Origin: Sulfolobales archaeon
GTDB taxonomy: Archaea > Thermoproteota > Thermoprotei_A > Sulfolobales > AG1
Length of the DNA: 64,000 nt
Reading direction: 5' to 3'
Assembly (NCBI GenBank): GCA_038867615.1
Contig: JAWBYA010000007.1
Span: 1 to 64,000, forward strand
A program made the position numbers and the translations under genes. The notes under the pieces were generated by a model. That model worked only from the letters and a program-made list of their open reading frames with translations, ran no database searches and was not told the origin of the DNA. Of this stretch, positions 19,673 to 29,775 are shown in pieces (position 1 is the stretch's first letter; each line of letters begins with the position of its first letter).

Positions 19673-20143
19673 CTAGGAATCGCCTCCAAAGATCTTAAGA
19701 GTATATCCTCAATAATAGATCGAATTTATCTCTGCTCTGTTCTTATCCTGCATATGAGCCTTGTGCCGGTGATAGCCATTGAAGATCAACGGTTTGGGAT
19801 GCTCTGAGGTCTCGAAGCCGAAAGCTGGGTAGCTGGTATCGAATAATACCAATAGCTAGAAGTAAAACTCCGGGCAACTGCCCTTTTGTTTTCCCTATAG
19901 GATCTTTTGAAAACGCTTGTTCTAAATTAGAAGAAGAAATTATAAGCATGTAGGGCAAGATCTACATGTGCGGTTTATATGGGGTATTATAGAGCTGCTC
20001 TTGCAACATGTATAATATAGGAAATATATTCCTATCGCTCGCATTTATAGCCTTCATATATGTTCTGTATAGAGTGCAACAAACTCCTAGCCCGTTTGCT
20101 GGTATCGCGTTTATCTTTCCTACAGCACTCTGGCTGCTAAGCC

Positions 20144-20494
20144 ATAGCCAGCTGTTTCAGGTTTCATGATGGTTTATAGGGGTTGATATTAAACCCGTAG
20201 TTCTGCAGTAATGGAACATAGTATAAGCTCTGTATTTTATTGGAATGCCCGCCCAACAATGAGGGTAGAGATAGAGACCCGAGTGGGCGGGTTAAAGGCA
20301 AAGAGATCCAGGATGTGGAGGTTTTCCCCACAGCAATGAACCCGAGCAATGCTATGAAGGGGAGCTGTGGGTTAGGGTCACCCCGAATGGGTGGAGGCCA
20401 ATGATAAGGGCTCCAATGAAAGGAGCCCTGAGGCCCATGAAGCCAAGGGAAGAGCAGTTGGTATAAAAATCAACCGCAATGAAGCCCGAACCCC
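20144..20494 (+). mobile_element. Non-autonomous IS-derived element (MITE-like), copy 1, carrying promoter + multi-K-turn RNA
   Basis: Colinear homolog of 27768-28113 (inverted); ends CC|ATAGCCAGCTG ... GAAGCCCGAACCCC; precise insertion in a gene. Confidence 0.88.
20247..20494 (+). ncRNA. Predicted multi-kink-turn RNA (TnpB omega-RNA-like), copy 1
   Basis: Repeated helix-NAT-GA...GA-helix K-turn motifs, conserved and covarying with copy 2. Confidence 0.65.
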
Positions 20495-20922
20495 TGGTTT
20501 TCCTCCTCATAGCCTTTCTACTCAGCATTGGTGTGAGGTCACGTGTTCTCGGACTATTCTTCGGATATGGTGCTGCTGTCCATATACTCTTCATCATAAC
20601 TATTATTACGCAAGCTATTATTACACAGGGCGCGCTACCTCTAGACCCATTCCTACCAGGTATCTTGATATTATTGCTAGGAATTCCAGCTGTATTGGCA
20701 TTATTGCTAGGAATCGCGGCGATAAAGAGGCTCTAAAACCCGGAGAGCAGCATGGTAGTTTGGGATTAAAAATCGGTGGATTTTTCTGCTCAATGTCTTT
20801 GGGGATTGTGTAAGCTGTTCCAGAGGGCTCGTGGGTTTGGTGAAACCTATAGGGGCTGGTCGGGATCCTTATGCTTGTGACATTCTCCTACACGGTCTCC
20901 TTATGAAATAGAGGATCTCTGT

Positions 20923-24680: not shown

Positions 24681-24939
24681 CCTTCGAACCCTAAACCAGC
24701 AGGTCTGAGTCTACGTCCTATCCCCCTAAAACAGATCTCGAACCCCTAATGAGAAGATCCCAAGAGACGTGCGAAGCCAGGGGTAGGGTAGCCAGTAGCA
24801 GGCGTGCTGGTCACAGTGAAGCAATCCATGCGCGATCAATCTTTGTTTTCTCCATGGGGTCTATTATTTTTAAGGATTCTTCGTGTTGAAGGAAAGATGT
24901 TATAAATATGTGAGGGCAAGATCTACATATGTGGGTTGT

Positions 24940-25350
24940 ATGGGGTACTATAGAGCTGCCCTTGCGTTTTGCATAATGGGGAGTATATTCTTGACATTCG
25001 CGTTCGTTTTTGCTCTTTTCATGCAGTTCTCGCCACAATCAGGTTCTGGCTGGCTTGCCTCTATATTTGTTCCTATCGCAATTATAGTCTATGTTCTAGC
25101 ACCATGGATTCTGGGCCTGATCTCCTTTCTCCTAGCATTTCTTCTCAGCATTGGTGAGAGATCAGCGGTTCTCGGATTATTCTTTGGATATGCCGCTGCT
25201 CTCCACGTAATTTTCATCGCGATCCTCTTTGTGGTTGGAGGCATATCTGGGCTGATCGGTGTGCTTCGCTCGGAGACCGGGATGGTGATGCTAGGGATCC
25301 CTGTCGTGGTAGCACTATTACTAGGGATCGCGGCTGCCAGGAGATTCTGA
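24940..25350 (+). CDS. Small multi-pass membrane protein
   Basis: About 4 TM segments; TATAAATA at 24901; paralog of the pseudogene at 19979. Confidence 0.75.
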   Translation: MGYYRAALAFCIMGSIFLTFAFVFALFMQFSPQSGSGWLASIFVPIAIIVYVLAPWILGLISFLLAFLLSIGERSAVLGLFFGYAAALHVIFIAILFVVGGISGLIGVLRSETGMVMLGIPVVVALLLGIAAARRF

Positions 25351-27767: not shown

Positions 27768-28113
27768 GGGGTTCGGGCTTCATTGCGGTTGATATCGCTT
27801 GATATCAACCGCTCTTCCCTTGGCTTCATAGGCCTCAGAACCCCTTTCGTTGGAGCCCATATCATTGGCCTCCACCCATTCGGGGTGACCCCTACCCACA
27901 GCTCCCCTTCATAGATTTTCTCTGGTTCATTGCTGTGGGGAAACCCCACATCCTGGTTTTTATTTATCCCACCCCTCGGGTCTTTATCCCCACCCTCATT
28001 GTTGGGCGGGCGTCCCATAGAATAACAGGGCTTATATAATGTTCCATCATTGCAGAACTGCGATTCAATATCAATCCTTATAAACCATCATGAAACTCGA
28101 AGCAGCTGGCTAC
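27768..28113 (-). mobile_element. Non-autonomous element copy 2 (promoter + multi-K-turn RNA)
   Basis: Minus strand CC|GTAGCCAGCTG...TTATATAAG...GCGGTTGATATC-AAGC-GATATCAACCGC AATGAAGCCCGAACCCC. Confidence 0.88.
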
Positions 28114-28166
28114 GGCGGCGAGCCCAGGGTTTAGGGAGATCTGTTATGGTTATGTATTCTGTGTCT

Positions 28167-28265
28167 CCATGGTAGCTGTACCTTTGTTACATAGGCTGGA
28201 TATGGTGTTCAGGCTCGACAGTAGTTGATAACAAACAATATTAACCGCAATGAAAGCCAAACCCC
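28167..28265 (+). repeat. Degenerate/mini derivative of the element (clear right end, possible left end)
   Basis: GTAGTTGATA...TATTAACCGCAATGAAAGCCAAACCCC matches the right end; CCATGGTAGCTGT resembles the left end. Confidence 0.55.
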
Positions 28266-28283
28266 CTCTAAATAGGTTTATTG

Positions 28284-29707: not shown

Positions 29708-29775
29708 GTAGCCAGCTGTTTCGGATTTCATGATGGTTTATAAGGATCGATATTGATATTGAATTTGTCTCTGTA
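29708..29775 (+). repeat. Left-end fragment of the element
   Basis: GTAGCCAGCTGTTTCGGATTTCATGATGGTTTATAAGGATCGATATTGA, near-identical to the left ends of copies 1 and 2. Confidence 0.8.

What the first reader, a model, noticed from the sequence alone, without database searches (positions are those of the whole stretch)
20144..20494. Mobile RNA-only cassette: internal promoter plus RNA with ~6 kink-turns (TnpB omega-RNA-like)
Seen: a 351-bp element with no transposase. After a TATA-like box (20221; TTATATAAG in copy 2) a predicted RNA starts at GCCCGCCCA and repeats the K-turn grammar helix-NAU-GA...GA-helix. Kt1: CCCGCCCAAC AAT GA GGGT..ACCC GA GTGGGCGGG (20248-20291). Kt2: CCCACAGC AAT GA..GA GCTGTGGG, with a nested GA-GC/GC-TAT-GA (20327-20371). 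Back-to-back K-turns share a GGCC/GGCC helix and enclose the hairpin GGGCTCC-AATGAAA-GGAGCCC (20389-20444). A last K-turn caps the terminal hairpin (20447-20487). Established: K-turns bind L7Ae in archaea, and omega-RNAs end at the transposon right end and take their guide from flanking DNA. Inference: GATGTGG..GGGTCACCCCGAA resembles Thermoprotei tnpB 3' ends, so these may be stand-alone L7Ae-scaffolded guide-RNA cassettes, each insertion supplying a different guide to a TnpB in trans.
Basis: partly seen in the sequence, partly recalled or inferred. Interest (0 to 1): 0.87.

Follow-up and report, generated by a model that had tools for sequence, protein, structure and literature searches.

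The report
Guide-RNA-only jumping element with kink-turns
This 351-base repeat is a stripped-down archaeal jumping gene that lost its protein genes but kept a promoter and the folded guide RNA of a CRISPR-like nuclease (TnpB), studded with kink-turn motifs; the kind is already known and this is a clean new example.

Summary
The element is real and its coordinates (20144-20494) are exact. It is one of 17 full-length copies in this genome, which also holds dozens of deleted copies. Three empty sites in sister genomes show scarless insertion after (G)CC with no duplication. It is an internal-deletion derivative of a tnpB element. It keeps the left end, the tnpB promoter, an upstream hairpin and the last 190 nt, which are the tnpB 3' end plus right end, i.e. 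the omega-RNA. Autonomous relatives carry an IS607-type serine TnpA, so the family is IS607, not Y1 IS200/IS605. The RNA fold shows strong covariation. Four kink-turn cores are 95-100% conserved in 41 sequences. A fifth is specific to this MITE lineage. The nested kink-turn is not supported and the hairpin-loop motif fits only partly. Expression, L7Ae binding and use by TnpB in trans were not tested. All three have published precedent: stand-alone omega-RNAs (PMC10691335) and L7Ae-bound OrfB-derived RNAs of Pyrococcus (PMC3124441). The scan had already noted this family in other windows of this genome, and kink-turn guide RNAs in other archaea. Verdict: a new member of a known kind, of moderate interest.

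The parts
20142..20143 (+). CC of the target, which reads GCC at 20141-20143. This is the crossover core / likely end of the TAM; it belongs to the host site, not to the element.
   Evidence: Empty sites in G003/G002 keep ...GCC...ACC or ...GTC directly joined to the right flank. Positions -3..-1 are G49/C47/C46 of 55 left flanks.
20144..20494 (+). The whole non-autonomous element (MITE, 351 bp).
   Evidence: 17 full-length copies. Exact ends come from three empty sites at other copies and from the uninterrupted paralogue.
20144..20189 (+). Left end (LE), shared with the parent tnpB elements. It contains TTTCATGA, an inverted match to the right-end ATGAAGCC.
   Evidence: MITE positions 2-46 match IS_A at 76% and IS_B at 84%. 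The LE motif also lies upstream of tnpA(S)-tnpB in L087, L088, L092, L096 and L118.
20215..20227 (+). Promoter remnant AACATAGTATAAG. The family consensus is AACATTATATAAG, the TATA box of the parent tnpB gene.
   Evidence: The same 13-mer lies 27 nt before the tnpB ATG in IS_A. TATATAAG is in 16 of 17 copies and is degenerate in this one. Promoter activity is inferred.
20248..20291 (+). Upstream hairpin P0 ('Kt1'): C-stem CCCGCCCA(A)C/GTGGGCGGG, bulge AAU, GA, GGGU/ACCC, GA.
   Evidence: It matches the region of IS_A that codes the first CxxC of the zinc ribbon. Eight different outer-stem sequences are all complementary, in 14 of 17 sequences folded. The K-turn consensus holds only in this MITE lineage; the others read TGC.
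20316..20494 (+). Core omega-RNA scaffold (match to model R1), ending at the right end.
   Evidence: 193.1 bits, E 1.1e-48. 94% of cells are paired and there is covariation in A2 and A7.
20318..20325 (+). 5' strand of closing helix P1 (GGAGG.UUU), which pairs with GAACCCC at 20488-20494.
   Evidence: Predicted by RNAalifold. 95% paired, but with little covariation.
20327..20371 (+). Kt2: C-stem CCCACAGC/GCUGUGGG, bulge AAU, G.A/A.G, 3b.3n A.G.
   Evidence: Core positions are kept in 40-41 of 41. 6 of 8 C-stem pairs have compensatory changes in A7.
20373..20385 (+). Small hairpin (U/A)GGGG-UCA-CCCCG.
   Evidence: 93% paired, with one-sided changes only. The alternative pairing CACCC/GGGUG is not excluded.
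20390..20444 (+). Double K-turn domain. The NC stem GGU/GCC leads to Kt3 (bulge CAU, GA / GA). The 4-bp C helix GGCC/GGCC is shared with a box C/D-like K-turn (AAUGAUA ... CUGA, 3b.3n U.U). That K-turn leads to the hairpin GGGCUCC-AAUGAAA-GGAGCCC (20408-20428).
   Evidence: Core positions are kept in 40-41 of 41. The GGCC helix changes to GCCC/GGGC in 10 sequences, and the hairpin has 3 pairs with double changes. In A7, 3 of 4 and 5 of 7 pairs respectively have double changes.
20447..20487 (+). Terminal domain: NC stem GGG/CCC, K-turn (GA before the stem; bulge AAU, then GA after it) and hairpin GCAGUUGGU...AUCAACCGC (20454-20477).
   Evidence: Core positions are kept in 39-40 of 41. The stem changes from GCGG..CCGC to GGGC..GCCC. 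9 of 9 stem pairs have double changes in A7. This K-turn is missing in the two most distant relatives, L104 and L107.
20495..20514 (+). Predicted guide: the host DNA just past the right end (UGGUUUUCCUCCUCAUAGCC). The length is assumed.
   Evidence: Conservation stops at 20494. On inspection, the 54 right ends have 54 different flanks. Guide function is inferred from TnpB biology (PMC10691335).
20008..20736 (+). Small membrane-protein-like ORF split by the insertion (20008-20169 and 20479-20736 as listed).
   Evidence: ORF list. An uninterrupted paralogue lies at about 24913-25218.

Best explanation
The element is a non-autonomous, gene-less derivative (a MITE, or 'stand-alone omega-RNA' element) of an IS607-family tnpB insertion sequence of hyperthermophilic archaea.

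Shown:
- It arose from a tnpB element by internal deletions.
- It keeps the left end, the tnpB TATA box, an upstream hairpin that lies inside the zinc-ribbon coding region of the parent, and the last 190 nt (tnpB 3' tail plus right end).
- This right part is a conserved, covarying structured RNA on the + strand that ends exactly at the transposon end.
- The element inserts scarlessly after a (G)CC.
- The scaffold contains four family-wide K-turn consensus motifs, two of them back to back on one 4-bp helix, plus a fifth in this lineage.

Inferred:
- Transcription starts about 20-25 nt downstream of the TATA box, near 20247, and runs through the scaffold into about 16-20 nt of flanking DNA, which becomes the guide.
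- L7Ae binds the K-turns and rigidifies the RNA at high temperature.
- The TnpB of the one intact full-length copy (C1:11373-12746) loads these RNAs in trans. After excision it recognises the vacated site (..GCC plus the flank), favouring retention of the element.
- Mobilisation needs an IS607 serine TnpA, which this assembly lacks.

The confidence given applies to the whole statement. The identity (a gene-less IS607/tnpB derivative that keeps the omega-RNA module) I hold at about 0.9. The inferred functional steps I hold at about 0.4-0.5.
For: Family and ends. Empty sites are ATCGCC|GCTTTT, ACACC|AAGCC and AAGTC|TCCTAT.

Parent IS: MITE positions 2-46, 105-151 and 165-351 match IS_A at 76%, 79% and 86%. 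The promoter 13-mer is shared. The TnpB TNB domain scores E 7.9e-14 in Pfam and matches TnpB/Cas12f structures.

IS607 type: at least 22 of 69 related loci have a roughly 145-240-aa ORF abutting tnpB. All 6 of the 6 that I tested are MerR-HTH plus Resolvase.

RNA structure:
- A2: 94.2% of cells paired against 30-56% with slid partners; 68 double-change cells against 26.6 +/- 4 in shuffles (0 of 500).
- Independent set A7: 30 of 48 pairs with double changes against 11.9 +/- 2.2 (0 of 500).
- G-U cells 160 against A-C cells 68, which favours the + strand.
- Third-codon-position identity is 0.71 in the tail against 0.48 in the tnpB core.
- The reading frame after the hairpin differs among relatives while the DNA stays conserved.

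K-turns: the core positions are kept in 39-41 of 41 sequences, and all four have a C-G pair closing the C helix, read from the sequence. They are 98% conserved against 77% for other unpaired columns and are kept in the distant set.

MITEs in other genera (L033, L036, L047) keep the same hairpin plus scaffold. Whether they formed independently was not tested. L7Ae is encoded in the genome.

Precedent: stand-alone omega-RNAs work in trans (PMC10691335, passages). PATEs often encode omega-RNAs (PMC10055086, passages). P. abyssi sRkB/sRkC come from repeats related to an OrfB 3' end, have their own BRE/TATA 24 nt upstream, and L7Ae binds two K-turns (PMC3124441, section 9).
Against: - No transcript evidence. 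No RNA run holds the stretch, and three metatranscriptomes gave one read pair.
- The window copy's TATA box is degenerate.
- No IS607 TnpA or Y1 TnpA was found in this 94%-complete assembly.
- The cognate TnpB has DRQ where typical TnpBs have DRD (motif from PMC10691335), so cleavage is uncertain.
- Deleted MITE forms that lack large parts of the scaffold have also multiplied, so the RNA is not needed for spread.
- On A2 the number of pairs with double changes (11) is not above shuffles (9.3; 94 of 500 reached it).
- A7 was aligned to the model, which leans towards its structure.
- The single-sequence K-turn scan is not significant.
- Kt1 is not a consensus K-turn in the parent IS.
- An archaeal TnpB (SisTnpB1) made in E. 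coli cuts DNA without L7Ae (PMC10640517, passages). It belongs to a different family.
Confidence: 0.7

Rival explanations
1. Inert relic. The copies are decaying deletion products with no present RNA function. Their fold and K-turn motifs are simply inherited from the parent tnpB element, and only the two ends matter, for past mobilisation.
For: No TnpA was found in the genome. The TATA box is degenerate in the window copy. Shorter derivatives that lack positions 176-259, 197-284 or 97-160 are also multi-copy. There is no RNA evidence. The copies are only 9-19% diverged, so selection on individual copies cannot be read.
Against: MITEs in other genera (G008, G037) retain the same upstream hairpin plus full scaffold while dropping the roughly 83 nt between them. 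About 25 genomic copies still score 129 bits or more against the model. The promoter is kept in 16 of 17 copies. In P. abyssi the equivalent loci with promoters are expressed (PMC3124441, section 9).
Confidence: 0.2
2. The K-turns are real, but L7Ae is not a partner. They fold through metal ions or tertiary contacts, or are read by TnpB itself, and act only as architectural bends of the omega-RNA.
For: Two of the four have 3b.3n = A.G. K-turn rules say that 3n = G permits ion-driven folding (abstract of PMC4382518 in the search listing). A different archaeal TnpB works without L7Ae in vitro (PMC10640517). A K-turn-like bend was discussed in an engineered ISDra2 omega-RNA (PMC13201667, one passage).
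Against: One motif is box C/D-like (AUGAUA...CUGA with U.U), and such K-turns need L7Ae to fold (PMC5689011, introduction). L2/L3 are A/U (the RUGA pattern) in most sequences. L7Ae bound the analogous P. abyssi RNAs (PMC3124441).
Confidence: 0.25
3. The repeated CNATGAA motifs and hairpins are mainly DNA signals. They would be subterminal binding sites for the IS607 serine transposase, not RNA motifs.
For: IS607 ends carry multiple short direct repeats, and an imperfect inverted repeat, up to more than 60 bp from the ends, bound by TnpA (PMC6188088, passages). ATGAA(G/A)CC lies 11 nt from the right end, and its inverse TTTCATGA lies 22 nt from the left end.
Against: The partner GA dinucleotides on the opposite strands of each helix are equally conserved, and they are not part of the ATGAA motif. 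The helices covary. G-U cells outnumber A-C cells 160 to 68. The motifs extend more than 240 nt from the right end.
Confidence: 0.12
4. It is a Y1-transposase IS200/IS605 PATE that inserts 3' of a GCC target by single-strand peel-and-paste. This was my first reading.
For: There is no TSD, the target motif is conserved, and there are subterminal hairpins.
Against: Autonomous relatives carry a serine TnpA between the same LE and tnpB. The Y1 genes found in 6 of 41 relatives lie in elements with no DNA similarity to this one.
Confidence: 0.03

Closest known systems
Stand-alone omega-RNAs / gene-less OMEGA elements and PATEs (Altae-Tran 2021 as summarised in PMC10691335; Meers 2023, PMC10055086)
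   Same: It is a mobilised, protein-less unit that keeps the transposon ends and the omega-RNA scaffold. The guide is taken from the flank. It sits in the same genome as effector-bearing copies.
   Different: This one is archaeal and IS607-type. It carries the tnpB promoter fused in front of the RNA, and its scaffold holds four or five K-turns. Trans use was not tested here.
Pyrococcus abyssi sRkB/sRkC (and sRk48/sRk52) ncRNAs (Phok et al. 2011, PMC3124441)
   Same: They are repeated intergenic loci similar to the 3' end of a solo OrfB (TnpB) gene. They have their own BRE/TATA 24 nt upstream and primary transcripts of about 211-218 nt. L7Ae binds two K-turns.
   Different: They come from a different phylum, and sequence homology to this family was not tested. 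They were not interpreted as guide RNAs in 2011. Here more K-turns are predicted but none was tested. The supplementary alignment of that paper could not be seen.
IS607 family (IS607, IS1535, ISC1926; Chen et al. 2018, PMC6188088)
   Same: There are no TIRs and no target duplication. Autonomous relatives have a serine TnpA with an N-terminal MerR-type HTH upstream of tnpB. There are subterminal repeats and an imperfect inverted repeat.
   Different: The window element has neither tnpA nor tnpB. No matching tnpA was found in this genome.
Box C/D sRNA and ribosomal Kt-7 K-turns bound by L7Ae (PMC5689011)
   Same: A 3-nt bulge is followed by tandem G.A/A.G. One motif has 3b.3n U.U and reads AUGAUA...CUGA, like boxes C and D.
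   Different: There are no guide regions for methylation, no C'/D' pair and no match to any Rfam family. Two K-turns share one 4-bp C helix.
Sense-overlapping ncRNAs at the 3' end of IS1341-type tnpB genes in archaea (PMC4615843; abstract seen in the search listing only)
   Same: The RNA lies at the 3' end of tnpB on the sense strand.
   Different: Those RNAs sit inside full-length genes; here the RNA module has become a separate mobile unit.

Membership tests
TnpB omega-RNA | Encoded at the 3' end of tnpB on the sense strand and ending at the transposon right end | tested here: met
   MITE positions 165-351 match the last 190 nt of IS_A. Model R1 hits the tnpB 3' end in 28 of 38 loci at 79.9 bits or more.
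TnpB omega-RNA | Conserved secondary structure supported by covariation | tested here: met
   Caveats: A7 is fitted to the model, and on A2 the count of pairs with double changes is not above shuffles.
TnpB omega-RNA | A variable guide begins where conservation stops, at the element boundary | tested here: met
   Alignment of 17 copies with flanks. 54 right ends have different flanks.
TnpB omega-RNA | Transcribed, bound by TnpB, and directs TAM-dependent DNA recognition | not testable with these tools
   No usable RNA data. TnpB has DRQ in RuvC-III.
IS607 family (non-autonomous member) | Serine recombinase TnpA with an N-terminal HTH in autonomous members that share the ends | tested here: met
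   All 6 ORFs tested are MerR-HTH plus Resolvase. The LE motif lies upstream of them in L087, L088, L092, L096 and L118.
IS607 family (non-autonomous member) | Insertion without target-site duplication and without terminal inverted repeats | tested here: met
   Three empty sites. There is only a subterminal imperfect inverted match.
IS607 family (non-autonomous member) | A cognate TnpA available in the same genome | tested here: not met
   Not found with a TnpA(S) protein query. The only Resolvase-domain gene (C23) has an N-terminal catalytic domain. The assembly is 94% complete.
IS200/IS605 (Y1) PATE | Y1 TnpA in autonomous members of the same element family | tested here: not met
   None in the own genome. 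The Y1 genes of relatives lie in unrelated elements.
Standard K-turn | A 3-nt bulge followed by tandem G.A and A.G, between a Watson-Crick C helix and an NC helix (definition from PMC5689011) | tested here: met
   The sequence pattern and its conservation hold for four motifs. Kt1 holds in this lineage only. The nested motif is not supported.
Standard K-turn | Kinked geometry and binding by L7Ae | not testable with these tools
   L7Ae genes are present. The only support is precedent (PMC3124441).
Box C/D sRNA | C and D boxes plus C'/D' boxes with 10-12-nt antisense guides; match to Rfam models | tested here: not met
   No Rfam match up to E = 10 except one chance lncRNA hit. Only one C/D-like motif pair is present.

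The most novel reading that the evidence does not exclude
In this clade of hyperthermophilic archaeal IS607 elements the guide-RNA particle has three components. Four to five L7Ae molecules would bind the omega-RNA's K-turn array, including a back-to-back double K-turn on a shared 4-bp helix. They would be required for the RNA to fold and for TnpB to work at 80-95 C. The TnpB itself has a conserved DRQ in place of the RuvC-III DRD. Dozens of promoter-bearing MITEs would then form a dispersed repertoire of L7Ae-scaffolded guides.
Probability: 0.3. Interest if true: 0.7.

Novelty: new member of a known kind. Interest (0 to 1): 0.4.

Why it matters
The finding ties together two literatures that were not connected in the papers I could search. 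One is the older work on L7Ae-bound K-turn RNAs from repeats related to OrfB 3' ends in Pyrococcus and Sulfolobus. The other is the modern view of these RNAs as TnpB guide RNAs.

If L7Ae is a real subunit, archaeal OMEGA nucleases could need a host RNA chaperone. That bears on why some fail in heterologous hosts, and on how to build thermostable editors. The family also gives a clean comparative data set: a covariance model, exact ends, empty sites and a conserved RuvC-III substitution. As an element it is an ordinary selfish repeat.

Tried and rejected
- Plasmid collection: no match.
- Rfam: nothing relevant up to E = 10.
- RNA evidence: no RNA holder was listed. Three hot-spring metatranscriptomes and one contig set were laid; only one read pair in X4 touched the MITE and one 151-nt contig touched the left flank. 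This is uninformative either way.
- Single-sequence K-turn scanner: not significant, and it missed Kt1, the box C/D-like motif and the terminal K-turn because of bulges and mismatches.
- Classical DDE MITE with TIR and TSD: rejected, because there is no duplication at three empty sites.
- Y1 IS200/IS605 reading: held until, then rejected.
- The Resolvase gene on C23 as the mobilising enzyme: rejected, because its domain order is catalytic domain first, then the remainder.
- IS607 tnpA genes of G003/G002 as the master copy: rejected, because they have no R1 hit and no LE motif.
- Empty site for the window copy itself: not found. G003 carries the same insertion and the other congeners lack the locus.
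- (paralogue alignment) was mis-gapped by the aligner, and I read the junction by eye.
- One search used wrong coordinates and was repeated correctly.
- Near matches of the 54 putative guides elsewhere in the genome: only chance-level hits with 2 mismatches, plus one exact 16-mer that I did not follow up.
- Not attempted: structure prediction of TnpB, because the outputs give no residue distances to judge the DRQ site.
- Not attempted: complex prediction, because it takes no RNA.
- Supplements were closed. The SI of PMC10691335 (clade assignment, scaffold boundaries) and Additional file 4 of PMC3124441 (sRkB alignment) may bear on the novelty claim.
Full report
WHAT IS THERE. The stretch 20144-20494 is one copy of a dispersed repeat. 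The window's own genome (2.22 Mb, 28 contigs, 94% complete) holds 17 full-length copies at 81-91% identity. It also holds many shorter forms with internal deletions; blastn gives 108 HSPs in all. A left-end motif occurs 56 times and a right-end motif 54 times. A covariance model of the right part finds 68 matches at E <= 1e-5, of which 25 score 129 bits or more. Inside the window there is a second full copy at 27768-28112 on the minus strand, a right-end fragment ending at 28265-28266, and a lone left end at 29709-29754. The window copy splits a small membrane-type ORF, and an uninterrupted paralogue lies near 24913-25218.

ENDS AND INSERTION. Two sister genomes of the same genus (G003, G002) lack the copy at C1:8971, and G003 also lacks the copy at C1:14444 and the full-length element IS_A. 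The empty sites read ATCGCC|GCTTTT, ACACC|AAGCC and AAGTC|TCCTAT. Each is the left flank, including its (G)CC, joined directly to the right flank. The element therefore runs from RTAGCC... to ...ACCCC, makes no target duplication, and sits after a CC.

ORIGIN. One intact full-length element is C1:11137-12700 (IS_A, 1564 bp; 457-aa TnpB with the Cas12f1-like TNB domain, Pfam E 7.9e-14; weak but consistent matches to TnpB/Cas12f structures). One frameshifted element is C1:50097-51743. MITE positions 2-46 match the left end. The 13-mer AACATTATATAAG is the TATA box 27 nt before the tnpB ATG. Positions 105-151 match a hairpin inside the codons of the first CxxC of the zinc ribbon. Positions 165-351 match the last 190 nt at 86%. 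The MITE is thus left end + tnpB promoter + hairpin + scaffold + right end, with tnpB and about 83 nt between hairpin and scaffold deleted.

WHICH IS FAMILY. I first read the scarless, motif-directed insertion as Y1 IS200/IS605. That reading is wrong. No Y1 TnpA is in the genome. The Y1 genes found in 6 of 41 relatives sit in elements with no DNA similarity to this one. First-stage notes on other windows of this genome suggested an IS607 'CC core', so I tested that idea. A protein scan of one genome per species returned 69 related loci, mostly Desulfurococcales and Sulfolobales, with some more distant archaea. At least 22 of them have a roughly 145-240-aa ORF abutting tnpB, in several cases just after the same left-end motif. 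All 6 of the 6 ORFs I tested are MerR-type HTH plus Resolvase, which is the IS607 serine TnpA. IS607 elements are described as lacking TIRs and target duplications and as carrying subterminal repeats (PMC6188088, abstract and passages). No such tnpA was found in the window's genome. Its only Resolvase-domain gene has the ordinary domain order. All five congeners have IS607 tnpA genes. Those of G003 and G002 belong to another element. One broken copy in G005 follows this family's left end.

THE RNA. On 41 right halves (A2; MITEs and full elements from 13 genomes), my structure of 48 pairs in 9 helices is 94.2% paired, against 30-56% when the partners are slid. It has 68 cells with changes on both sides, against 26.6 +/- 4.0 in shuffles (0 of 500). 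However, the number of pairs with such a change (11) is not above shuffles (9.3; 94 of 500). A model built from 27 of these sequences found the module at the 3' end of tnpB in 28 of 38 independent named loci at 79.9 bits or more, and in one more at 20.6 bits. On that alignment (A7, 30 rows, none dropped, but fitted to the model), 30 of 48 pairs show compensatory change against 11.9 +/- 2.2, and 93.7% of cells pair. G-U cells outnumber A-C cells 160 to 68, which favours the + strand. The single sequence folds with z = -3.6 on the + strand and -3.3 on the minus strand, which does not discriminate between strands. The tnpB frame stays open through the scaffold in 5 of 5 intact genes. Even so, third-position identity rises from 0.48 in the core to 0.71 in the tail, and the frame after the hairpin differs between relatives while the DNA stays conserved. 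The constraint is therefore at nucleotide level. The upstream hairpin folds in 14 of the 17 sequences examined (three had no anchor), with eight different outer stems, all complementary. MITEs in other genera keep this hairpin plus the scaffold.

K-TURNS. A standard K-turn is a 3-nt bulge followed by tandem G.A/A.G, and box C/D K-turns have 3b.3n = U.U (PMC5689011, introduction). Four motifs fit this definition and are conserved:
- Kt2, at 20327-20371.
- A box C/D-like motif (AAUGAUA ... CUGA).
- Kt3, which shares the GGCC/GGCC helix with the box C/D-like motif; together they span 20390-20444.
- A terminal K-turn, at 20447-20487.
Their 16 core positions are kept in 39-41 of 41 sequences, L1 varies, and all four C helices close with C-G. 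The core is 98% conserved, against 77% for other unpaired columns and 90% for paired ones (0 of 20000 permutations). The cores persist in the distant set, except that the terminal K-turn is lost in L104 and L107 and L104 has A at 1b of Kt2.

Kt1 (20248-20291) is a consensus K-turn only in this MITE lineage. The parent and other MITEs read TGC, a Cys codon, where this lineage reads TGA, and 5 of 17 copies have A at 2n. The nested K-turn is not supported; the AAUGAAA K-loop fits only partly (A rather than G at the 2n-like position). A scan of the single sequence is not better than shuffles. L7Ae is encoded in the genome, but binding was not testable.

WHAT IS KNOWN.
- Stand-alone, mobilised omega-RNAs that work in trans are described (PMC10691335, passages).
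- PATEs 'often encode omega-RNAs' (PMC10055086, passages).
- In P. abyssi, sRkB and sRkC come from repeats similar to a solo OrfB 3' end. They have a BRE/TATA 24 nt upstream, are about 211-218 nt long, and bind L7Ae at two K-turns. The authors cite similar L7Ae-bound, transposase-linked RNAs in S. solfataricus (PMC3124441, sections 9 and 15).
- Searches for TnpB with L7Ae (5 papers) and for TnpB with K-turn found no paper that treats natural omega-RNAs as L7Ae partners.
- Earlier agents of this scan reported K-turn guide RNAs of TnpB in Thermococcus and Asgard genomes. I did not test those reports.

MECHANISM AND DOUBTS. The shown and inferred steps are listed under Best explanation. The main doubts are these:
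- There is no transcript evidence.
- There is no tnpA in the genome.
- RuvC-III reads DRQ in 20 of the 22 relatives in which the motif was found, where typical TnpBs have DRDXN (PMC10691335). That paper reports archaeal branches with conserved rearrangements and considers such enzymes probably active.
- Scaffold-less derivatives also spread.

VERDICT. The element is a new member of a known kind, of moderate interest.

Noticed in passing
window 20375-20475 versus L058:2345-2699 (G003): The orthologous copy in the sister genome G003 has identical flanks and an identical left two-thirds. It differs in a patch of about 100 bp (about 14 substitutions plus a 4-bp loop indel). This looks like a gene-conversion tract from another copy.
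   Followed up: partly
G000 C1:10696-11034 (outside the window; another copy at C7:67380-67715): A second MITE family of 339 bp has 14 full-length copies among 39 blast hits. It is built the same way from a different tnpB family (C1:985, C2:203360). Positions 1-61 match that element's left end and positions 159-339 match its tnpB 3' end, with a TATTTATAAG box and a hairpin in front.
   Followed up: partly
L023:363-1733 (G000 C1:11373-12743) and 22 related loci: The TnpB of this family has ELDRQK(L/V)A(S)xNI in RuvC-III. The Asp aligned with the catalytic Asp of Cas12f and TnpB structures is Gln in 20 of 22, and NRQ or NRH in the other two. The sister family at C6:24883 also reads LDRQ.
   Followed up: partly
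window 20008-20736 and 24913-25218: The element interrupts a small hydrophobic ORF. A roughly 80% identical uninterrupted paralogue lies 5 kb downstream, and its sequence at the equivalent point reads GGGCC|TGATC.
   Followed up: partly
window 28113-28266 and 29709-29754: Next to the second full copy (27768-28112, minus strand) there is a right-end fragment in the opposite orientation. A solitary left end lies 1.4 kb further on. Together they form a small cluster of element debris.
   Followed up: no
G000 C6:24883-25286: A sister tnpB family has a related right end (...ACTATGAGACCCAAACCCC) and scores 63 bits with the model, but it carries fewer ATGA motifs. At the terminal hairpin the non-bulged strand reads UA, not GA.
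   Followed up: no
G000 C2:291134 and C2:76713 (minus strand): One putative guide (the 16 nt after a right end) has an exact second match elsewhere on the same contig. It may be a duplicated region.
   Followed up: no
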